IMG/VR virus record: IMGVR_UViG_3300006169_000020 | Coordinates: 1-41,829 of that record | DNA: 41,829 bases | From: a virus | Lineage: Duplodnaviria > Caudoviricetes | Reading direction: 5' to 3' (one strand) | Shown here: in pieces, positions 28,927-40,740 of the stretch | Position numbering within the stretch: the first letter of the stretch is position 1 | Layout: each line of letters begins with the position of its first letter | Position numbers and translations under genes: made by a program | Notes under the pieces: generated by a model | Databases searched by the model: none | Told to the model about the DNA's origin: nothing | What the model saw: the letters and a program-made list of their open reading frames with translations, nothing else

Positions 28927-29265
28927 GTGGACGTCGACGGCTGGGAGCGCCTCGGCCGACTCATCCTCCACGACCGCGCCCGGCACTGGCGCAACCGGGA
29001 GGAGTTCGCGCAGGCGTCCGGCGTCAGCGCCCGCGTGCTCGACGACCTCGAGGCCGGGCGACGGGACAACTACCTCGAGGCCACCCTCGCCGGGGTGGAG
29101 ATCACCCTCGGGTGGCGCGCAGGCACCTGCCGGCGCGTCGTCGCCGGCGGCCGGGTCGAGCGCGACCTCGACGAGGACATGGCACGCATCTGGCGGGTGT
29201 GGCGGCGCCTGCCCCGCGAGGCCCGGAGCATGCTCGCCGACCTCGCGGAACGCTCAGCCCGCTGA
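28927..29265 (+). CDS. Second XRE-family HTH regulator
   Basis: WERLGRLI..DR...NREEFAQASGVSARVLDDLEAGRRDNY...LAGVEITLGW; start uncertain (GTG 28927 or ATG 28828). Confidence 0.75.
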   Translation: MDVDGWERLGRLILHDRARHWRNREEFAQASGVSARVLDDLEAGRRDNYLEATLAGVEITLGWRAGTCRRVVAGGRVERDLDEDMARIWRVWRRLPREARSMLADLAERSAR

Positions 29266-30645
29266 CCCGGCCCGCCACCCGATCCGCACCGTCTCCGGGC
29301 GGAACACGCGAGCGCCGCGGCCGGGGGACAGCAGGCTGACCGTCATCACGTCCTGGAGTGCTGCGCGGCGCGCGTCGAGGGACATGTGCTCCCACTCGTC
29401 GGCGACGTTGTCGGCGGCGAGGAGGCGGTCCAGGGCGGGGCGGCGGCGGGCGGCGGCGAGCTCGGTGATGACCTGTTCGAGCTCGGCCCGGGCCCTCTTG
29501 GATCCGGCACGCAGTTGCAGCTCGTCGACGTCGCCGGCGGCGAAGGCCTCCGCGAGGCCGTCGAGGCGGGCCCGGAGCTGCTTCTCCGTGGCGCGGAGGG
29601 TGCGGACACGGTCCCGGTTCGGTCCGGGGGTGGTGAGCTCGTCGGCGTGCTCCTCGAGGCGGGCCCAGAGGACACTGGTGACGTAGTCGTCCAGCTGGTC
29701 CGCGCCGCGGGAGATGTGCGCTCGGCTCTTGCAGTAGTACATGCGGGGGCGGTCGCCGGACCTGGTGGCGTAGACGGGCCCGCCGCAGACGCCGCAGGTG
29801 GCGATGCTGGTCAGGAGGGATGATTGGGGGCGGCCGGGGGCGCGGCGGTCCGGGTCGTCGAGGAGGGCGCAGATCGCGCGGTGGGTGTCGACGTCGAGGA
29901 TGGCCGGCCACGTGCCAGGGCCGATCTGGGCGCCGCGGTGGACCCGGATCGCGGCATACCGGGGGTTGTGGAGCATGCGCCGCACCTCGGTGCTGGCCCA
30001 CAGGTTCCCGGCGGTCGTGCGGGCCCCGGCCTTGTTGAGGTGGGCGCGGATCGCGTGGATCGACTCGCCGGCGAGGAGTCGGGCTGCGGCCTCCTGGACG
30101 TGCGCGGCCTCAGCCGGGACGGTGGCGGTGCCGTCGGCGGTGTACCCGAACGCGCGCCGGCCGACGTGGGGGCGCCCCTGTTCGGCGCGCTGGTCGCTGG
30201 CCTCCTTCTGCCGGGCCGACTTCCGCTCGATCTCCGAGCGGGCGACCGCGCCCTTGATGCGGGCGAACAGGCGGCCGTTGTCCGTGGCCAGGTCGACGTC
30301 GCCACCGATCGACGCGAGCGCGATGCCGCGCCGGTCGGCGAGGTCGATGAAGTGCTCGATCTCGATGGGGCGACGGGTCAGCCGGTCGAGGTCCCACACG
30401 ATCACGGCGTCGATGACGCCGGTCTCGAGGTCGTCCAGCATCTCCTGGTAGCTGGGGCGTGGCTTCCCGGTTGAGGCGGAGGTGTCGTTGTCCTCGTAGA
30501 CCTTGTGCACGGTCCAGCCGAGGTCGGCGGCGCGGGTCTTGCAGGCCTTCGTCTGGCGGGTCACGCCGAGGCGCTTACCGGAGGGGTCCAGGCTGATCCG
30601 GACGTAGATGCCGGCCCGACGGCGAGTGCGGGAGGGGTTCACCAC
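29254..30645 (-). CDS. int: Large serine integrase
   Basis: Catalytic YVRIS, DLDRLTR, recombinase domain (FGY...LHNPRYA), zinc ribbon CGVCG...YYC and coiled coil; 463 aa. Confidence 0.93.
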   Translation of the reverse strand: MVNPSRTRRRAGIYVRISLDPSGKRLGVTRQTKACKTRAADLGWTVHKVYEDNDTSASTGKPRPSYQEMLDDLETGVIDAVIVWDLDRLTRRPIEIEHFIDLADRRGIALASIGGDVDLATDNGRLFARIKGAVARSEIERKSARQKEASDQRAEQGRPHVGRRAFGYTADGTATVPAEAAHVQEAAARLLAGESIHAIRAHLNKAGARTTAGNLWASTEVRRMLHNPRYAAIRVHRGAQIGPGTWPAILDVDTHRAICALLDDPDRRAPGRPQSSLLTSIATCGVCGGPVYATRSGDRPRMYYCKSRAHISRGADQLDDYVTSVLWARLEEHADELTTPGPNRDRVRTLRATEKQLRARLDGLAEAFAAGDVDELQLRAGSKRARAELEQVITELAAARRRPALDRLLAADNVADEWEHMSLDARRAALQDVMTVSLLSPGRGARVFRPETVRIGWRAGSAG

Positions 30646-30658
30646 CCCAGACTACTAG

Positions 30659-30712
30659 ACGTGCGAGGTTTTCCGGCATACGCTCTGACGTATGTCGAAA
30701 ACGTCCGCACGT
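30659..30712. other. Candidate attP site of the serine integrase
   Basis: 54-bp imperfect dyad just upstream of int, centred on CT (30685-30686), with 18 of 26 flanking positions paired, including outer ACGTGCG/CGCACGT and inner CATACG/CGTATG. Confidence 0.7.
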
Positions 30713-31474
30713 TGGCCAAGGGTGGCCGCCTGGGGGCTGCAGCTGATGCTCCTCGCCGGTCTGATCGCAGGCTACGCGCAGCCTGCTGAGGCGCGCGAGG
30801 TCCCGGTCGACCTCCCCGCCGTCTCCGCACCCATGGTGCAGACCGAGCGCTGCAGCAAGCCCGCCCCCGACACGGCGAAGGGGTACCAGCGCGCGTTCGC
30901 CAACCTCGACGACCGCGAGTGGGGTGCTGCCGACGTGGGCATCAGCGTCCCCCTCAACGACGGCCGGACCGTGTGGCTGTGGGGTGACACCTTCTCGACA
31001 GGGCGGTTCGTGCACTCGACCGCGGTGGTGCAGGACGGAGGATGCCTGCACGTCAGCAACGGCGGCGCCCAGTTGCTCCCCAACGACGGCGCGAAGTACT
31101 ACTGGATCGAGGCGGCGTTCCGGCACGGTGAAGAGAATCTGATCTGGATTGCCGCCGAGGAGACCGCGAAGGACCCGAAGGCCGAGTGGGGTTTCCGCTA
31201 CACCGGCTACAACCGCCTCGCCGTCGTGTGGATCGACCCGACCGGGGACGCCGTGTTCCAGGGCTGGCAGGGTCGGATCAAGGCGCCGCAGGCCGCGAAG
31301 CTGAGTGACCTCGTCGAGCTGAGGAACGGGCAGATCCAGTACAGCCACCGGCTGCACTCGCACGTCGAGCTGGCGAGCGGCAAGACGCTGATGAGCGCGG
31401 CGCGGAACTGGACCGACGGCAAGATGCACCCGTTGCGCTCCTACCTCCCGGTCTTCACCGAGATGTCGGGGTGA
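30692..31474 (+). CDS. Secreted protein, DUF4185/DUF5005-like (moron)
   Basis: Signal-peptide-like LQLMLLAGLIAGYAQPAEA; WGAADVGISVPLNDGRTVWLWGDTF motif. The true start may be GTG 30722. Confidence 0.6.
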   Translation: MSKTSARWPRVAAWGLQLMLLAGLIAGYAQPAEAREVPVDLPAVSAPMVQTERCSKPAPDTAKGYQRAFANLDDREWGAADVGISVPLNDGRTVWLWGDTFSTGRFVHSTAVVQDGGCLHVSNGGAQLLPNDGAKYYWIEAAFRHGEENLIWIAAEETAKDPKAEWGFRYTGYNRLAVVWIDPTGDAVFQGWQGRIKAPQAAKLSDLVELRNGQIQYSHRLHSHVELASGKTLMSAARNWTDGKMHPLRSYLPVFTEMSG

Positions 31475-31660: not shown

Positions 31661-32071
31661 CTACCTGCCGGTCCGGCGGTACGCCCGACGACAGGGGCGA
31701 CACCGCCGCTTCCCGCTGGGCTCGACGAGGATGTTGCCCTCAGTCCAGTCGTGAAGGCCGGCACGGCACCGGTTGCCGTTGGCGTTGCGCCGGCTGTTGG
31801 TCGCCGACACCAGGCCACGCTCGGTGTTCTTCTGGTTGGTCACCGGCTCCATGTGCCACGGGTTCACGCACGCGCGGGTGCGGCACAGGTGGTCGATCAC
31901 CAGCCCGACAGGGATCTCGCCGCGGAGCTCCTCGAACGTGAGCCGGTGGACGGTGCTGTTGGTCTTCCCGTTGAGTAGGAAGATCCCGTACCCGTCGCGG
32001 GTCTTCGCGGCCGTCCACAGCCAGCAGTCACCGTCCTGGCGGACCTTCGCCCAGAACCGGGCAGGCAGCAT
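31661..32071 (-). CDS. Free-standing HNH endonuclease
   Basis: RFWAKV...CWLWT...GYG...HRL...IDHLCRTRACVNPWHMEPVT..N. Confidence 0.88.
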   Translation of the reverse strand: MLPARFWAKVRQDGDCWLWTAAKTRDGYGIFLLNGKTNSTVHRLTFEELRGEIPVGLVIDHLCRTRACVNPWHMEPVTNQKNTERGLVSATNSRRNANGNRCRAGLHDWTEGNILVEPSGKRRCRPCRRAYRRTGR

Positions 32072-32120
32072 CGGGGTCACGCGACCCCTCCCCAACCCCA
32101 TATCGCGCTGGTCATGGTCA

Positions 32121-32261
32121 TCACCTCCTGGTCCCTTGTCCACGTTGGTGGGTGGTCTCGCAGTCGCGTGCCAGCACGGGCACGACGAACCAGGCCCGAC
32201 ACACCTGGCAGCGCCAGGCCTCGTCTCCGGTGGGTGGGGTGTCGACGTCGCTGTCGCTCAC
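32121..32261 (-). CDS. Small zinc-finger-like protein
   Basis: 46 aa, CQVC...VVPVLARDCE..H; GTGA-coupled. Confidence 0.5.
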   Translation of the reverse strand: MSDSDVDTPPTGDEAWRCQVCRAWFVVPVLARDCETTHQRGQGTRR

Positions 32262-32581
32262 GCGTACTGCCGGCGCACCTTGAACTGCACCGAGTGGCCC
32301 TCGGCGTCGCGGGCGAACGTCTGCCGGCGGCCGCCGGCCCAGAGCGCCTCGAGCTCTACGGACCACAGCCCGTCGACGTCGAGGTCGCCAGCGGACCACG
32401 TGTACGCCCAGGCACCCGTTGCCGCGGCGGTCACCGCGAGGCCGTTGCCGGTGTCGCGGGTCAGGGCGGTGGTGCCGTCAGGCTTGAGGAGGTGCAGCTC
32501 GACGGTCGCGCCGGTCAGGTTCGCGTTGACCGTGCCGGTCAGGGCGGGCTCGGTGTCACCGACGGTGAACTCCTGCATCAC
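32258..32581 (-). CDS. BppU-N-like / Ig-like virion protein
   Basis: GDTEPAL...NLTGATV...G...YTWSAGDLDVDG...W..G..QTF pattern. Confidence 0.55.
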   Translation of the reverse strand: MMQEFTVGDTEPALTGTVNANLTGATVELHLLKPDGTTALTRDTGNGLAVTAAATGAWAYTWSAGDLDVDGLWSVELEALWAGGRRQTFARDAEGHSVQFKVRRQYA

Positions 32582-34263
32582 GTGAGCTCCAATCGGCTCG
32601 AGGGGATCGTGAGGGTCAGCCGCGGCGGAACCGCCTCGGCCAGGTCGAGGACCGGTGCAGGCTGCTCGAGCAGGGTCAGACGGGACGTCGCCTCGACGAG
32701 GACGAGCTGCGGGTCGTCGACCGGGTCGCCGACGTCGCCACCCACGAGGCCCGCACCCGCACCCAGCAGCGGTGCCAGGACCCCGGCGCCAGACCCGTCG
32801 GTTCTGGTCTCGCCGGCACCGGCGCCGCTCAAGGCCGTCAGGAGTCCCGCGCCCGACCCGGGCGCCCGGAGAGTCGCCGCGCCGGCACCAGCGAGCGGGG
32901 GGAGGTTCGCGACGGACGCCCCTGCGGTCCGGGCCTGCCCGGTACCAGCGCCGACCAGCTGCGGCAGGGTGTGGGTGCCGCTGCCGGCGTTGCCGGCGGA
33001 CCCCACGAGGCCGCCGCCGGACCCCGTCAGGTTCGGCAGGATGCCCGCACCTGCGCCACCGGTCCGGACCTGGCCCGTGCCGGCGCCGCCGAGGGAGAGC
33101 AGGGTGCCGGAGCCTGTCCCGGCGGTGGCGACGGCGGCCGCGCCGGACCCGGTCAGCCCAGGCAGCTCACCGCTGCCAGTCCCGGTGAGACGGACCTGGC
33201 CGGCGCCGGCACCCGCCAGGGGCTGCAGGGAGCCCGTCGACGAGCCGGAGGCGGCCAACTGCCCAGCCCCGAACCCCGTGAGTCCAGGGAGGCTGCCGGA
33301 GCCCGTAGCGGTCGTCTTGACAGCGGCCACGCCAGCCCCAACGAGGCCGGGCAGGGTCGCCGCGGCCGTCCCGGTCGTGCGGACTTGGGCCGCACCCGCA
33401 CCGGTGAGGCCGGGCAGGGTCGCCACGGCCGTCCCGGTCGTCGTGGCCGTCCCCGCACCGGCGCCAGTCAGCGCGGGTAGGACAGTTGCGCCGGCGCCGG
33501 TGACGGAGGATCCACCGTCTGGGGTGTCGAACACCGTGGAGTCGAACACGGTCTCGTCGAAGACATCGCCCGTGGTCGGGGCCGCGGCCGGGTTGTCCTT
33601 GATCTCGACCGCGACCATGTTGAAGTTCTGACCGGACGGGCCGGTCATGTTCATGGTGACCGAGCCGGGCTCGGCGGTGAGCGCGTCCTGCTTCCACACG
33701 CGGCCCGTGTAGAGGCCGGTGGCGTCGTGGAGGTCGGTTCGGGTCTGCCCGGCGCCCATGGTGCCCGCGCCCTGGGCGGACCAGTCCGAGGCGCACGCCC
33801 ACACCCACGAGTTGCGGGCGTTCGTCGTCAGGGTCGCCGACGGGATGCCGGACGCGGAGAACGCGACCTTGTACCCGCCGACGCTGGGAGCTCCACCGTC
33901 TGCGGTGAAGACCTTCACTGCGATCGACTTGGCCTTGGACCCCGACTGGGTCAGGGTGACCGTGCGCGCGGCCGCGGTGCTGGTGACGGCCCACCACACC
34001 TCGACGAGGCTGTTCGTGCCGGCACCCTCGTCGGAGGTGGAGACCAGGCCCTTGCGTGCCCGGCGGGTCCAGGTGAGGCCACCGGAGTCGGTGACGGTGC
34101 CGACCTCGGTGGTCACACCGCTGCTGGTGTCCATCATGCAGAACGCCACCAGGAGGGCGTTCGCTGGCGCGGTGAACGAGCTCGTGCTCAGCGCGGTGGA
34201 GACGCCCTGGAGGTGGCTGGCCAGCGCCGGGGTGGAGGCATCGAGCTGTGGTCCGACCGGCAC
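32578..34263 (-). CDS. Gly/Ala/Thr-rich repeat fibre-like protein
   Basis: 561 aa: N-terminal beta-rich domain, VFDETVFDSTVFD motif, then about 12 repeats of about 21 aa. Confidence 0.7.
   Translation of the reverse strand: MPVGPQLDASTPALASHLQGVSTALSTSSFTAPANALLVAFCMMDTSSGVTTEVGTVTDSGGLTWTRRARKGLVSTSDEGAGTNSLVEVWWAVTSTAAARTVTLTQSGSKAKSIAVKVFTADGGAPSVGGYKVAFSASGIPSATLTTNARNSWVWACASDWSAQGAGTMGAGQTRTDLHDATGLYTGRVWKQDALTAEPGSVTMNMTGPSGQNFNMVAVEIKDNPAAAPTTGDVFDETVFDSTVFDTPDGGSSVTGAGATVLPALTGAGAGTATTTGTAVATLPGLTGAGAAQVRTTGTAAATLPGLVGAGVAAVKTTATGSGSLPGLTGFGAGQLAASGSSTGSLQPLAGAGAGQVRLTGTGSGELPGLTGSGAAAVATAGTGSGTLLSLGGAGTGQVRTGGAGAGILPNLTGSGGGLVGSAGNAGSGTHTLPQLVGAGTGQARTAGASVANLPPLAGAGAATLRAPGSGAGLLTALSGAGAGETRTDGSGAGVLAPLLGAGAGLVGGDVGDPVDDPQLVLVEATSRLTLLEQPAPVLDLAEAVPPRLTLTIPSSRLELT
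32741..33480 (-). repeat. Degenerate coding tandem repeat with about 63-bp period
   Basis: Units such as LPALTGAGAGTATTTGTAVAT, LPGLTGAGAAQVRTTGTAAAT and LPGLVGAGVAAVKTTATGSGS. Confidence 0.85.
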
Positions 34264-34276
34264 AGCGGTTCACCCC

Positions 34277-34810
34277 CTACCGGAAGTAGAGCGTGGCGAA
34301 GCCAACCGTGGGCGGGGTGGTTCCGAGGGCGACCCCGACGACCAGGGCGATGTAGCAGTCGTTGATCTTCGCCCCGGCCGCGATGTTCTGCCAGCCGCTG
34401 TCGTGGATCACACCCGCACCGCCACCCGTGGCTCCGACAACGCAGGAGACACCCATGTCGGCCACCCCGGTGCTCGAGGCCCAGGTGGCGTTCTCCGCGG
34501 TCGCGTACTGTACCTTGTACGCCGCACCGGTCGCGTTGCCGGTCGCGATCACCCCGACCACCAGTCGGGCCTGCGTCGCCTGCGACAGGTCGAGCTTGTT
34601 CCGCGTCGACTTCGCGGTGGCGTGCAGCTCGGTGCCCACCGCGGCGGATGCGGCCGCGGGCGTGAGCGCCGCGTTCTGGCCCAGGATCATCTCGATGGAG
34701 AACGGGACGTGGTCGTGGTCGGCCCGCCACCCGTCCGTGACGTCCCCGCCGACCTTCCCCGACCCGGCGGTGGTGGGGACGCCGGCGCCGACCTTGTGCT
34801 TGATCCCCAC
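34277..34810 (-). CDS. Hypothetical beta-rich virion-type protein
   Basis: 177 aa from GTG 34810 (MGIKHKVGAG...W.ADHDH...). Confidence 0.6.
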   Translation of the reverse strand: MGIKHKVGAGVPTTAGSGKVGGDVTDGWRADHDHVPFSIEMILGQNAALTPAAASAAVGTELHATAKSTRNKLDLSQATQARLVVGVIATGNATGAAYKVQYATAENATWASSTGVADMGVSCVVGATGGGAGVIHDSGWQNIAAGAKINDCYIALVVGVALGTTPPTVGFATLYFR

Positions 34811-34814
34811 GAGG

Positions 34815-35222
34815 TCAGGCGGGCGCGGACAGGGACAGCGCGGTAATGTCGACCTGGACACCAACGCTGATCGTGGTCGTGGCCAGCTGCAGGTCACCAC
34901 CACCACCGGTCGCGGTCACGGACCCGTCGTAGACGTTGTCGCCCGAGGCGTCCTCGATGCGGAACCAGCCGGCAGTGCCGGCGGCGACACCCGTCACAGC
35001 GGGCGGGTCACCGGCGTTTGCGGTCCCGGACGACGCAGCACCGAACGAGGGATCCGTCAGGTTCACGGTCGCCAGCAGCGTCCCGGTCTCGGCGGCATCA
35101 CCGTTGGCCGGCTGCGAGCCGGTGAAGATCTTCAGGGTGCCGGCGCCAGCATCGGCGTCGATCAACGCCGTGACGGCGTTGACCATCGCGTTACGGGCAG
35201 CGGTAGACGGACGGATCGCCAT
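34815..35222 (-). CDS. Putative virion structural protein (fibre base/decoration type)
   Basis: ARNAM...GAGTLKIFTGSQPA...GTLLA...GTAGWFRI...DGSV...GGGGDL pattern recalled from phage structural modules; AGGAG RBS. Confidence 0.65.
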   Translation of the reverse strand: MAIRPSTAARNAMVNAVTALIDADAGAGTLKIFTGSQPANGDAAETGTLLATVNLTDPSFGAASSGTANAGDPPAVTGVAAGTAGWFRIEDASGDNVYDGSVTATGGGGDLQLATTTISVGVQVDITALSLSAPA

Positions 35223-37851: not shown

Positions 37852-38763
37852 TCAGGCGGCTCCGGCGATGTAGGCGGCGAGGATGTAGTTGCCGTGCCGG
37901 TCGAGGTTTCCTCGGGCTCGGTCGTACCTGGCGGTCATCCGCGGGTCGGAGTGGCGGGCGGCGATCTGCACGTCTCGCAGCGGCACACCGGCGTCGAGAC
38001 AGTTGGTGACGAACGCGTGCCGCAGCGAGTGTGGGCTGATCGGCTTGTCGATGCCGGCGGCCTTGGCCATGCGCTTGACGACCCGGTCGGCTGCGCGCCG
38101 GTCCATCCGGTGCCCGTCGGGACGGAGGAGCAGCGGTCCGGTCGTGCGGTCGCCGGCGGCGACGTCGAGGGTCCGCGCCACGGGGATCGGCAGGGGGATA
38201 GTGGCCGGCTTGCCACCCTTCCCGGTCACGGTGAGGGTGCGGTGGCCGCGGACCTCACCATGGGTGTGCTCGATGTCGACTGCGCATGCCTCTGACACGC
38301 GCAGTCCGAGGAGGCCGAGGAGGGTGACCAGTGCCGCGTCGCGGGGAGACGACGCGCGCGCGGCCTGGACGATCGCGCCGAGCTCCATCCGGTCCAGGCC
38401 GAGGGTCTTCGTCTCGTCCTTGAACAGGCGGGGCAGGCGCAGGTGCTCGGCCGGGTTGATGTCGACGTAGCGGTCGATCGCGGCCAGCCGGAAGAACCCG
38501 CGGAGAACGGTCAGCCGACGGTGCACGGTGGCTGGGCAGTTGCCGCGGTCGGTCTCGAGGTGGCGGCCATACAGCTCGAGGTGTGGGCGCCCCACCGTCA
38601 GCGGGTCCAGCTGATGCTCTGCACACCAGGCGAAGAACAGCCGAAGGTCGAGGGCGTATGCCGTGAAGGTGGCGCCGGAGTAGCGGGCAAGGTACCCGGC
38701 GGCGGCCATCTCCGCCCGAGTCATCGTCGGGCTGGCGGACAGGGTCAGGGTAGCGTTGTGCAC
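37852..38763 (-). CDS. Tyrosine recombinase, Xer/Cre-type (no arm-binding domain)
   Basis: 303 aa; core-binding domain (AYALDL...PATVHRRL) and full catalytic set: R (GLRVSE), K (GKGGK), HxxR (HSLRH), H (ARHSD), Y (TARYD). Confidence 0.93.
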   Translation of the reverse strand: MHNATLTLSASPTMTRAEMAAAGYLARYSGATFTAYALDLRLFFAWCAEHQLDPLTVGRPHLELYGRHLETDRGNCPATVHRRLTVLRGFFRLAAIDRYVDINPAEHLRLPRLFKDETKTLGLDRMELGAIVQAARASSPRDAALVTLLGLLGLRVSEACAVDIEHTHGEVRGHRTLTVTGKGGKPATIPLPIPVARTLDVAAGDRTTGPLLLRPDGHRMDRRAADRVVKRMAKAAGIDKPISPHSLRHAFVTNCLDAGVPLRDVQIAARHSDPRMTARYDRARGNLDRHGNYILAAYIAGAA

Positions 38764-38787
38764 GGTCGTCTCCCAGATAGCAGCTGG

Positions 38788-38838
38788 TGAGGCGGCAAGG
38801 TCCCCGTCAGCGTTGCAGCGCTGGTGGGGACCGCCTCA
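38788..38838. promoter_or_regulatory. Stem-loop in the recombinase leader; candidate -10 TAGCGT at 38859-38854
   Basis: TGAGGC..GGTCCCCGTCAGCG / CGCTGGTGGGGACCGCCTCA inverted repeat. Confidence 0.5.
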
Positions 38839-38882
38839 TTTCTGACCCGGGTGACGCTACGCGCGGGCTCTGACAGGTGGGT

Positions 38883-38903
38883 GATAACCGGCAGTTACGG
38901 GCT
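38883..38903. other. Candidate tyrosine-recombinase (dif-like) site overlapping the tailspike stop codon
   Basis: GATAA-CCGGCAG-TTACGGGCT: inverted TAA/TTA inner arms around a 7-bp spacer, directly upstream of the recombinase promoter. Confidence 0.55.
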
Positions 38904-40740
38904 ACGTGGTGAAGACGGCGGGGTTCTCGAAGGTGACCAGGTCGACGCCGAGGAGGGTCGCAGAACCCGCCGTATCGGACCCACCACCTGTGCGCAGCAC
39001 CTCGACGTAGGCGATGTCCTCACCCCACGTCCCAGGGTCGGACTCCAGTACGAGCCGGTTGTAGCCGACGGTCGCAGCCAACGTCAGGTTCTTCTGCGTG
39101 CCGACCGTGGTGCCGGCCGCGCTGCGGCCTCGGACGGAGAGCACCATGTTGCCGGCGGTCGCGGGCAACTGGACGTGCAGCACGACCCGGGTGCGGCTGG
39201 AGACGTAGACCTTCTCGTCGGTGGCCTTCCCCCACGGGACGGCGAGCGTGGTGGTGACACCAGCAGGCAGCGCGGCGTTGAGGTACATGGCCCGGGTGGA
39301 CTTGCGGCCGAAGTAGTAGCACCCGTTGGAGAGCACCTGCGCCACCGGGGCGTCCGTGCGGATGAGGCCGACGTACCCGCGTGCCCGGACGGAGTCGCCG
39401 ACGTCGGCGACCGTGATCAGTGGGGTGGTGTTGCCGGAGTAGCCGCGGAACGAGACGCCGTCCTCGACGTTGAACCAGCGGACACGGCCGAGGTTGATCG
39501 CACCGTCCGGGCCGCCGGTGCCCTTGAGGAAGTACGAGCCAGCCTGCACGGTGATGGCTTGCGCGTTGCCGGCGGTGGACGCACCTGCCACACCCACGAT
39601 GTGGCCGCCGGTGTTGCCCTCGAAGTAGCCCTGGATGTTGAGCGCCTCGACTGAGGCGCCGATCCCGAGGCCGACGGCGTTGCCCTCGATGGCTGTGCCG
39701 AGGATGTTGACCTGCTTGGCGGTGTCCACCATGAGGCCGACGCTGCTGTTGTTCTGGATCTCCCCGCCGACGAGCGTGATGGAGTTCATGCCGGTGGAGA
39801 AGAGTGGCCCGGCCACGATCTCGATGCCCTTGACGCACCCCTGCACGATGGGGTTGACCATCGTCCCGACCCAGCAGTCCTCGATGCGGATGCCGGTACC
39901 GGTCGATCCGGTGACGTGGACATTGTCCATGTACCAGCGGGGTGCCCCGTTGGTCGCGCCGGCCTTGATGGTGATGGCCGGACCGGCGGTGCCGGTGCGG
40001 GAGACGGACAGGTCGCGCAGGGTCCACTTCGTCACCTGCTGGACCAGCATGGTGCACCCGGCGAAGGTGATCTTCGTGGACTGCGGTCCGGCGCCTTGTA
40101 TCACGACGTTGTCGGGGACGGTGAGGTCGCTGGTGACGGCGTGGGTGCCCACGGCGAGGCGGACTGTTCCGCCGCCGGAGCCGATGTCTGCGAGGGCTGC
40201 GGCGATGGTGGCCTTCGCGGTGCTGGCGGTCAGGCCCGGGCGGGAGTCGTTGCCGCCCGAGGCGACGTGCACGACCTTGGCCGTGCCCGTCTCATAGGTG
40301 GAATTAAGGGCTGTCCGGGTCTGGCTGCCCGAGGCGTTCACCGCGGTCGCGATCGCCGTGTCAGCGGGGGCGCCGACGAGGGCGGCGGAGTCTGCGGCTG
40401 CCTCAGCTGACGCGGCCGCCGAATCCGCGGCAGCAGCTGCGTCCCGGAGGAACTGCACCGGCAGCGCCTCGTAGCGGCGCCCGTTCGCGCCGACCGAGAA
40501 CGACGCCACCTTGACCGCGACCGGGACGCCGATGCCGTCGACCCAGCCGTCCTCGACCACAGCCGTGGTGACCGGGTTGCCGTCACGGTCGAGCAGGTCC
40601 GTGACCACGGTGTCGGTGTCCTCGTCCCACACCCACACCTCGGTGCGGTCGGCCTCGAACATGGCCACCCGGACGGCACGCGCCAGCATCGGGCCACCGC
40701 GCACCCACGTGTGGGTGGGAGGCATCACAGGCAGCGACAA
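38902..40740 (-). CDS. Tailspike / receptor-binding protein with right-handed beta-helix (putative depolymerase)
   Basis: TTG start with AGGAGG RBS. About 145-aa anchor plus Ala-rich linker, then GNDSRPG...AKATIAAAL...GGGTVRL...VVIQGAG (pectate-lyase-like start) and Gly/Asn/Ile beta-helix coils. Confidence 0.78.
   Translation of the reverse strand: MSLPVMPPTHTWVRGGPMLARAVRVAMFEADRTEVWVWDEDTDTVVTDLLDRDGNPVTTAVVEDGWVDGIGVPVAVKVASFSVGANGRRYEALPVQFLRDAAAAADSAAASAEAAADSAALVGAPADTAIATAVNASGSQTRTALNSTYETGTAKVVHVASGGNDSRPGLTASTAKATIAAALADIGSGGGTVRLAVGTHAVTSDLTVPDNVVIQGAGPQSTKITFAGCTMLVQQVTKWTLRDLSVSRTGTAGPAITIKAGATNGAPRWYMDNVHVTGSTGTGIRIEDCWVGTMVNPIVQGCVKGIEIVAGPLFSTGMNSITLVGGEIQNNSSVGLMVDTAKQVNILGTAIEGNAVGLGIGASVEALNIQGYFEGNTGGHIVGVAGASTAGNAQAITVQAGSYFLKGTGGPDGAINLGRVRWFNVEDGVSFRGYSGNTTPLITVADVGDSVRARGYVGLIRTDAPVAQVLSNGCYYFGRKSTRAMYLNAALPAGVTTTLAVPWGKATDEKVYVSSRTRVVLHVQLPATAGNMVLSVRGRSAAGTTVGTQKNLTLAATVGYNRLVLESDPGTWGEDIAYVEVLRTGGGSDTAGSATLLGVDLVTFENPAVFTT
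40293..40312. other. Candidate recombination site embedded in the tailspike coding sequence at the domain boundary
   Basis: Minus strand AGCCCTTAATTCCACCTATG (codons GCC CTT AAT TCC ACC TAT, ALNSTY). Shares AGCCC(T/G)TAA with the downstream site and uses T-ending codons that are rare in this genome. Confidence 0.45.

What the first reader, a model, noticed from the sequence alone, without database searches (positions are those of the whole stretch)
37852..40312. Tailspike receptor-binding domain bracketed by two dif-like sites next to a dedicated tyrosine recombinase: candidate host-range cassette-exchange system
Seen: an intact 303-aa Xer/Cre-type recombinase sits inside the late arm directly behind the tailspike gene, although integration is already served by a serine integrase with its own attP. 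Two related sequences in direct orientation flank exactly the C-terminal beta-helix part of the spike. On the minus strand, AGCCCTTAA-TTCCAC-CTATG (40312-40293) lies at about residues 143-149, where the Ala-rich anchor/linker ends. AGCCCGTAA-CTGCCGG-TTATC (38903-38883) overlaps the stop codon. The left arms match at 8/9 positions. Established: Xer-family sites have TAA-spacer-TTAT inner arms, recombination needs matching spacers, and tailspikes are modular (conserved anchor plus variable enzymatic domain). Inference: because the spacers differ, the two sites would not delete the domain. Each could instead recombine with the equivalent site on another phage or prophage, swapping receptor-binding domains in frame, like natural recombinase-mediated cassette exchange and unlike invertase shufflons. 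Caveats: the sites are short, spacer lengths differ (6 vs 7 bp), and I cannot confirm novelty without searches.
Basis: partly seen in the sequence, partly recalled or inferred. Interest (0 to 1): 0.9.

Follow-up and report, generated by a model that had tools for sequence, protein, structure and literature searches.

The report
Site-specific swap cassette for phage tailspikes
In many soil-actinobacterial phages the host-facing end of a tail protein is swapped at two short conserved DNA sites, one hidden inside the gene, and the neighbouring recombinase gene, long mislabelled a second integrase, likely performs the swap, which would give these phages a dedicated way to change hosts.

Summary
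Both sites and an intact tyrosine recombinase are present, and the cassette domain folds like tailspike depolymerases. The layout recurs in Arthrobacter, Gordonia and Rhodococcus phages. Site A is conserved at silent codon positions (TAT in 30 of 34 motif hits against 16% background). Alignments break at it (92 of 741 ends). An identical 2,883-nt A-to-B cassette sits in otherwise divergent phages. Relatives of the recombinase lie among arrays of the same sites on bacterial chromosomes, and the arms do not match host XerD arms. Against: most site-bearing phages lack the recombinase, so it must act in trans or host XerCD does the work; no swap of this window's own cassette was seen as DNA; nothing is shown biochemically. 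Best reading: like-with-like double crossover between two phage genomes, i.e. natural cassette exchange (0.55). It works like Acinetobacter dif modules but fails their membership test. Not found in ten literature searches. The scan noted similar layouts in other phage groups, none matching this family by sequence.

The parts
38902..40740 (-). Tail-associated spike gene, 612 aa: constant N-terminal anchor (about 1-147) fused in frame to the cassette-borne domain
   Evidence: virion location inferred from gene order and fold
40304..40740 (-). Anchor-coding part (backbone side of site A); homologues carry unrelated C-terminal domains
   Evidence: similarity to P0003 and P0009 ends at residue 149
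40287..40314 (-). Site A, 11-6-11, spacer TTCCAC at 40303-40298, written into codons of the spike
38895..40297 (-). Cassette between the two spacers (about 1.4 kb): beta-helix and C-terminal beta-rich domain, tailspike-depolymerase-like
   Evidence: pLDDT 92; best matches are tailspikes, E 5e-9, TM only 0.3-0.47
38877..38905 (-). Site B, 11-7-11, spacer CTGCCGG at 38894-38888, about 130 nt before the recombinase start
   Evidence: same CTGCCGG-TTATC beside a family recombinase in L410
38854..38875 (-). Promoter-like motif resembling the DNA-damage RecA-NDp/PafBC element (consensus recalled), abutting site B
   Evidence: only hit in the window on either strand; 10 of 62 phage loci against 0.5% of control segments
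38789..38837 (-). Conserved hairpin leader of the recombinase gene
   Evidence: z -2.9; only 4 consensus pairs, each with compensatory changes; no Rfam family at gathering score
37852..38763 (-). Arm-less, XerC-like tyrosine recombinase, 303 aa, catalytic residues intact
29254..30712 (-). Context: large serine integrase and attP-like inverted repeat, so integration is likely served elsewhere

Best explanation
Sites A and B bound an exchangeable tail-protein cassette, and the adjacent tyrosine recombinase likely swaps it between two phage genomes by recombining A with A and B with B. Shown by comparison: related phages change cassette exactly at these two sites, always in the same reading frame, so a new C-terminal domain is fused to the resident anchor. 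Inferred: one enzyme binds both arms as a homotetramer; the two different spacers keep A and B from recombining with each other; a crossover at one site joins an incoming or induced phage to a resident prophage, and a crossover at the other separates them with cassettes swapped. Inferred: one partner's enzyme suffices, which would explain why most site-bearing phages lack the gene; expression may rise on DNA damage, when prophages induce. Inferred: the cassette sets host range, and its reverse-strand cargo masks the receptor in the lysogen.
For: Silent-site conservation: TAT in 30 of 34 protein-defined motif hits upstream of the recombinase, background 168 of 1043, 0 of 6 elsewhere. Breakpoints: 92 of 741 alignment ends within 25 nt of A in both partners (76 loci, about 1% expected); 37 of 417 at B (59 loci). 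A 2,883-nt cassette with 0 differences among Isolde, Bridgette, Ryan and QuinnAvery; the left flanks align at only 55-63%, except 88% for Ryan-QuinnAvery. Mutzi/Utz, Confidence/Pytheas, Samba/Utz and TripleJ/EvePickles break at A. Of 30 site-B hits, 28 have an A-type match 1.4-4.4 kb upstream, 2 of them doubtful. Spacer A is TGCCAC in 56 of 76 loci. Enzyme link: in an Acidimicrobiia chromosome 6 of the 7 perfect CATAA-N6-TTATG sites lie within 6.6 kb around a 53%-identical recombinase, with two spacer classes, one of them TGCCGG as in this window; 8 of 13 further loci from that order carry such sites. Phage arms lack the A-rich outer half of host XerD arms. No A-left/B-right hybrid was found in IMG/VR (2 hits, both low-GC and off-context). 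Cargo.
Against: The recombinase is beside only 6 of 39 genuine site-A hits and 5 of 30 site-B hits (6 of the 30 have under 1.2 kb held downstream); 12 of 12 near-complete site-bearing records chosen for lacking it nearby have no close copy anywhere. In 151 Arthrobacter-genus genomes, 11 carry the exact site B and 4 a close recombinase, with no overlap. No site A was assigned in 26 of 62 recombinase loci; in several Gordonia and Rhodococcus loci only one arm of B is recognisable. Gordonia A spacers vary, which fits a strict matching rule poorly. Of 68 chromosomal family members, 66 lack a high-scoring upstream site. The window's B has 7 nt between arms. No DNA-level relative of this window's cassette or anchor was found. 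Auxilium lacks the cassette yet was isolated on the same host species. Pope et al. tie an attP to the Howe homologue. Loci are related, so counts are not independent events.
Confidence: 0.55

Rival explanations
1. The cassette is real but host XerC/XerD exchange it, as with Acinetobacter dif modules; the phage recombinase is a passenger or backup that settled next to site B.
For: Most site-bearing phages lack the enzyme yet keep near-perfect sites and show the same breakpoints. Sites are 11-6-11; the inner arms resemble the host XerC arm; the arm order is inverted as in dif modules.
Against: Host XerD arms have A at arm position 8 in 5 of 5 stored dif sites and 32 of 32 published-genome matches (the pattern fixed positions 1-6 only). 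Phage B outer arms have it in 2 of 21, and none of 54 A inner or 54 A outer arms has the AA at positions 8-9. The same symmetric sites and spacer classes cluster around family recombinases in a distant host class.
Confidence: 0.2
2. The cassette moves like Tn916: A x B recombination despite mismatched spacers excises a circle, which inserts into an empty site on another phage.
For: Inner arms form terminal inverted repeats and are better conserved than A's outer arm; Gordonia spacers vary; tandem B-B and A-A cassettes exist.
Against: Spacers are near-invariant and position-specific in Arthrobacter phages, unlike Tn916 coupling sequences (recalled). No empty hybrid site was found. Tandem cassettes are flanked by identical spacers, which like-with-like recombination explains.
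Confidence: 0.1
3. The enzyme is a second integrase or a Cre-like multimer resolvase acting at site B; cassette swaps are a by-product.
For: It is annotated as an integrase; a predicted attP lies by the Howe homologue; a single site just upstream of a recombinase is the Cre/lox layout (recalled).
Against: Every annotated phage locus examined that has it also has another integrase, as does the chromosomal island. That attP is absent from Utz and Bowser. It does not explain site A inside a gene.
Confidence: 0.08
4. Swaps arise by ordinary short-homology recombination at a domain boundary, and the DNA motif is kept for another reason, such as a regulator's binding site.
For: Domain boundaries are natural breakpoints; Pas et al. 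describe conserved motifs flanking receptor-binding domains and propose homologous recombination. Some anchor homologues of the window's spike break earlier than the site (P0004, P0005, P0007, P0008).
Against: Shared identity can shrink to the 6-nt spacer plus one arm. The 11-6-11 form, two spacer classes and co-location with one recombinase family are unexplained.
Confidence: 0.07

Closest known systems
dif modules bounded by pdif sites on Acinetobacter plasmids (PMC9455709, passages read)
   Same: 11-6-11 sites in inverted arm order bounding exchangeable modules; cointegrate formation and resolution can yield hybrids.
   Different: No XerD-type arm; a phage-encoded single recombinase lies beside the site; one site is inside a gene and makes an in-frame fusion; hosts are temperate actinobacterial phages.
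Tail-fibre invertase systems (Mu Gin, P1 Cin) and the R64 Rci shufflon (recalled)
   Same: A recombination site inside a receptor-binding gene joins a constant N-terminus to a variable C-terminus.
   Different: No second silent C-terminus and no inverted pair of matching sites in the window; variety is drawn from other genomes, not flipped in place.
Integrons (IntI, attI, attC)
   Same: Gene cassettes beside a tyrosine recombinase; tandem cassettes; possible DNA-damage control.
   Different: No IntI profile match beyond the C-terminal 65 positions; sites are symmetric double-stranded cores rather than attC hairpins.
Conserved motifs flanking receptor-binding domains in E. coli phage tailspikes (Pas et al. 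2023, PMC10408124, passages read)
   Same: [quoted passage not shown]
   Different: Those are 20-95 nt homologies in lytic phages, proposed to aid homologous recombination; the word recombinase does not occur in that paper's main text.
The unexplained 'second Int-Y' of Gordonia and Arthrobacter phages (Pope et al. 2017, PMC5559632 section 8 read; PMC13097055 passages)
   Same: Same protein family: Utz gp31, Howe gp36, Bowser gp37, QuinnAvery gp38.
   Different: Those papers leave the role open; the passages read describe no sites or cassette.
Engineered recombinase-mediated cassette exchange with heterospecific lox/FRT sites (recalled)
   Same: Two mutually incompatible spacers flank a cassette; double crossover.
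   Different: Natural, and unproven here.

Membership tests
pdif/dif modules (XerCD) | 28-bp sites of two 11-bp arms and a 6-bp spacer | tested here: met
   Family-wide 11-6-11; the window's B is 11-7-11
pdif/dif modules (XerCD) | One arm matches the host XerD arm | tested here: not met
   Outer half is C-rich, not A-rich
pdif/dif modules (XerCD) | Module flanked by inversely oriented sites | tested here: met
   Inner arms mirror each other, as do outer arms
pdif/dif modules (XerCD) | Recombination needs host XerC and XerD | not testable with these tools
   Needs mutants or purified proteins
XerC/XerD orthologue | Reaches the curated XerC, XerD, XerA or XerS cut-off | tested here: not met
   114 vs 335, 119 vs 330, 108 vs 220, 41 vs 267 bits
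Integron | IntI-type integrase | tested here: not met
   TIGR02249 60.6 vs 265 bits, profile positions 235-299 only
Integron | attC hairpin sites after each cassette | tested here: not met
   No Rfam family at gathering score in 38600-39100; sites are short symmetric cores
Invertase shufflon (Gin/Cin/Rci) | Inverted sites with matching cores and alternative C-termini in the invertible segment | tested here: not met
   One C-terminal domain and non-matching spacers in either orientation
Tyrosine recombinase superfamily | R-K-H-R-H/W-Y catalytic set and SAM-like core-binding domain | tested here: met
Tn916/CTnDOT-type element | Arm-binding integrase, variable coupling sequences, empty target | tested here: not met
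   303 aa with no arm-binding domain hit; spacers near-invariant; no empty hybrid found
Beta-helix tailspike depolymerase | Right-handed beta-helix after an anchor | tested here: met
   pLDDT 92 model; best structural matches are tailspikes; Pfam Beta_helix below cut-off
Beta-helix tailspike depolymerase | Trimeric, virion-bound, binds or cuts a surface glycan | not tested
   Inferred from fold and gene position only

The most novel reading that the evidence does not exclude
An undescribed family of tyrosine recombinases runs natural cassette exchange with two orthogonal spacers. On chromosomal islands it serves integron-like arrays without attC. In temperate actinobacterial phages it swaps paired 'receptor-binding tip plus receptor-masking gene' cassettes in frame across phage genera, is switched on by DNA damage, and is shared in trans as a public good.
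Probability: 0.4. Interest if true: 0.93.

Novelty: new variant of a known kind. Interest (0 to 1): 0.82.

Why it matters
Tail-tip swapping is usually put down to homologous or illegitimate recombination, and the known site-specific systems invert DNA within one genome. A recombinase that exchanges tips between genomes would be a new route of host-range evolution. It also gives a testable answer to an open question in print: what the second Int-Y of Gordonia and Arthrobacter phages does (Pope et al. 2017). The test can be run with isolated phages and laboratory hosts (Isolde, Seahorse, Ryan, Elesar, Utz, Samba, Mutzi). If right, the enzyme and its two spacers are a ready-made cassette-exchange tool for actinobacteria, and the chromosomal arrays are a cassette platform that attC-based integron finders would miss.

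Tried and rejected
No DNA-level relative of the window's anchor in IMG/VR and no match of the whole spike in the phage collection. No sequencing run was listed, so joints and soft-clipping could not be examined (no evidence either way). Single-sequence fold failed (pLDDT 42); no PDB sequence match. No close recombinase (E<=1e-105) in 301 genomes of the family of a Nocardioides genome, so the host is unknown. An early idea that both sites have 7-nt spacers was dropped. Inversion in the Arthrobacter loci was rejected: the reverse-strand esterase is a separate gene and there are no matching inverted sites. A third site after the recombinase was looked for by eye and not found in phages. The site-B sets used a faulty pattern that missed TTAAG arms; one search replaces them. 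The recombinase tree (FastTree) places the window with six other rows but does not make the phage loci one clade; no co-evolution claim is made. Rows dropped before counts: duplicate loci, 10 low-GC chance hits of 49, 13 low-GC hits of 19 (4 kept as new loci, 2 duplicated loci already held), and two genomes flagged unpublished. Literature searches with no description of this system; the library lacks most subscription papers. Pope's figshare Table S1, which gives the Howe attP position, was not seen and bears on the integrase rival.
Full report
Setting. The window is a near-complete viral record (92%) of a GC-rich temperate tailed phage with portal, capsid, amidase lysin and a large serine integrase. 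Its proteins point to an actinobacterial host, which I could not name. On the minus strand the late arm runs minor tail gene, 612-aa spike, 303-aa tyrosine recombinase, membrane proteins, lysin. The recombinase has an intact catalytic set and falls far below the XerC, XerD and IntI cut-offs.

The observation. As a bare repeat the pair is unremarkable. With outside data it is not: models trained on other genomes rank these two places first in 41.8 kb. The spike is modular. Residues 1-149 match proteins with unrelated C-termini, two of them breaking at residue 149; four others break earlier. The cassette part folds with pLDDT 92 and its best structural matches are tailspike depolymerases, at low TM-scores.

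The family. The recombinase matches 107 phage records at E<=1e-40, 59 Gordonia and 47 Arthrobacter, where it is annotated as an integrase. In all 16 annotated loci fetched that contain it, a second integrase lies nearby (two views of some phages not counted twice would leave 15 phages). Pope et al. wrote that it is unclear which of these enzymes integrate and which do something else (section read); the QuinnAvery report repeats the question (passages). Upstream of the gene, 1-6 kb away, a tail-region ORF carries the motif L-[D/N/S]-[A/G/S/T]-[T/A]-Y. Defined by protein alone, 30 of 34 non-redundant hits use the rare codon TAT, against 168 of 1043 in the background and 0 of 6 hits elsewhere. 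The pattern was written after seeing the proteins and the loci are related, so this is a strong trend, not a clean probability. Site A was assigned in 36 of 62 phage-type recombinase loci.

Swaps fall on the sites. Among 76 loci, 92 of 741 alignment ends lie within 25 nt of site A in both partners, where about 1% is expected; for site B the figure is 37 of 417 among 59 loci. Isolde, Bridgette, Ryan and QuinnAvery share 2,883 nt from spacer A to spacer B without a difference, with divergent flanks. Isolde and Seahorse share the anchor and the recombinase side but not the cassette. In Gordonia, Mutzi and Utz share the cassette from A onward with unrelated anchors; Confidence and Pytheas, and Samba and Utz, share the backbone up to A. 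A search for site B alone found 30 loci, 28 with an A-type match upstream (2 doubtful). QuinnAvery, Seahorse and L285 carry a second cassette between two B sites. Cargo is coherent. Of the 39 phage proteins I picked, the forward ones include GDSL/SGNH esterases, a polysaccharide deacetylase, a sialic-acid esterase and beta-helices; the reverse-strand ones include five O-antigen-ligase-like proteins, three acyltransferases and three GDSL esterases; 11 had no Pfam hit. The window's cassette has the spike domain only.

Which enzyme. This is the weak link. Searching by site rather than by enzyme, the recombinase is adjacent in 6 of 39 genuine A hits and 5 of 30 B hits; 33 records without it nearby have no close copy at all, 12 of them near-complete. 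Elesar, EvePickles, Faja, Persistence, TripleJ and Samba lack it in the stretches fetched, and such phages show the same breakpoints. Host XerCD is therefore a serious rival. Two results favour the family enzyme. First, host dif sites have an A-rich outer XerD arm (Frankia seed sequence in PMC3025954, passage), which phage arms lack. Second, in an Acidimicrobiia chromosome a 53%-identical recombinase sits in an island bounded by two tRNA-Sec copies, with its own integrase, amid nine symmetric sites that delimit single genes; 6 of the genome's 7 perfect sites are there. The spacers fall in two classes, CGGCAC and TGCCGG, close to phage A and B. Eight of 13 further loci from that order show the same, one with the window's exact CTGCCGG-TTATC. 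Against this, 66 of 68 other chromosomal family members lack a high-scoring upstream site, so the link holds for part of the family only.

Mechanism. Shown: site form, fixed reading frame, breakpoints, two spacer classes. Inferred from established tyrosine-recombinase chemistry, which needs matching spacers: A x A and B x B are allowed and A x B is blocked, so the cassette cannot be deleted or inverted but can be exchanged through a cointegrate, as described for pdif sites (PMC9455709, passages). No empty hybrid site turned up, though one pattern in one collection is a narrow test. One partner's enzyme would serve both, which fits the patchy gene. A motif like the DNA-damage RecA-NDp promoter precedes the gene in the window and in 10 of 62 loci against 0.5% of control segments; the papers read name the motif and its regulator PafBC but do not print its letters, so the consensus is recalled and this step is tentative. 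Variable Gordonia spacers and the 7-nt B spacer of this window are unexplained; the window's own B may be a variant or inactive.

Novelty. It works like dif modules and, in its in-frame fusion, like tail-fibre invertases, but fails defining tests of both and of integrons. Ten searches found no description; the nearest is Pas et al., who report longer homologies and homologous recombination. Earlier scan notes describe similar layouts in Clostridium, gut and soil phages; none matched by sequence and I did not test them. Verdict: a real, widespread site-bounded tail cassette (about 0.9), most likely moved by this recombinase family through double crossover (0.55); new variant of a known kind; interest 0.82.

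Noticed in passing
L122:5122-11772 (OZ244166.1): Bidirectional array of single-gene cassettes between nine symmetric sites around a family recombinase, on an island bounded by two tRNA-Sec copies; the recombinase gene itself is flanked by inverted matching spacers and could be invertible. Similar sites in L403, L408-L411, L414.
   Followed up: partly
window 38789-38837 (-): Hairpin leader conserved upstream of the recombinase across Arthrobacter, Gordonia and Rhodococcus phages; compensatory changes in the inner stem; no Rfam family.
   Followed up: partly
L342:1637-2833, L343:1766-2893: In two Arthrobacter-type genomes an integrase-like ORF starts within 270 nt of the chromosomal dif site, suggesting elements inserted at dif.
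   Followed up: no
L346:1490-1520, L347:1490-1520: Second dif-like sites with different spacers in the same two genomes, one beside polysaccharide genes; possible pdif-like sites in actinobacteria.
   Followed up: no
L018:5698-6807, L024:6026-7468, L133:5954-7468, L134:4043-5406, L143:1903-4492: Reverse-strand acyltransferase, O-antigen-ligase-like and glycosyltransferase genes paired with the forward tail enzyme; candidate receptor-masking genes.
   Followed up: partly
L281, L309 (records G011, G027): Two 16.6-kb viral records rated complete carry site A; very small phages or satellites may use the same cassette pool.
   Followed up: no
L023:5210 and 6065; L371; L143:461 and 761; L147:4305 and 4580: Two A-type motifs in consecutive tail-region genes; in the Gordonia pairs the second uses ordinary codons, so the protein motif can persist without the DNA site.
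   Followed up: partly
L377 and L385 (one contig): One 58-kb viral contig holds two separate A-B cassettes about 12 kb apart.
   Followed up: no
L139:4746-5947 (Auxilium): Has the recombinase and site B but lacks the anchor gene and tail cassette; the deletion is not at site A.
   Followed up: partly
window 32578-35222 (-): A second block of structural genes (135-aa virion protein, phrog_3758, and a 561-aa Gly/Ala/Thr-rich protein) lies after the lysin, apart from the main tail genes.
   Followed up: no
window 30692-31474 (+), 31661-32143 (-): A secreted-looking protein and an HNH-like ORF between the late arm and the serine integrase.
   Followed up: no
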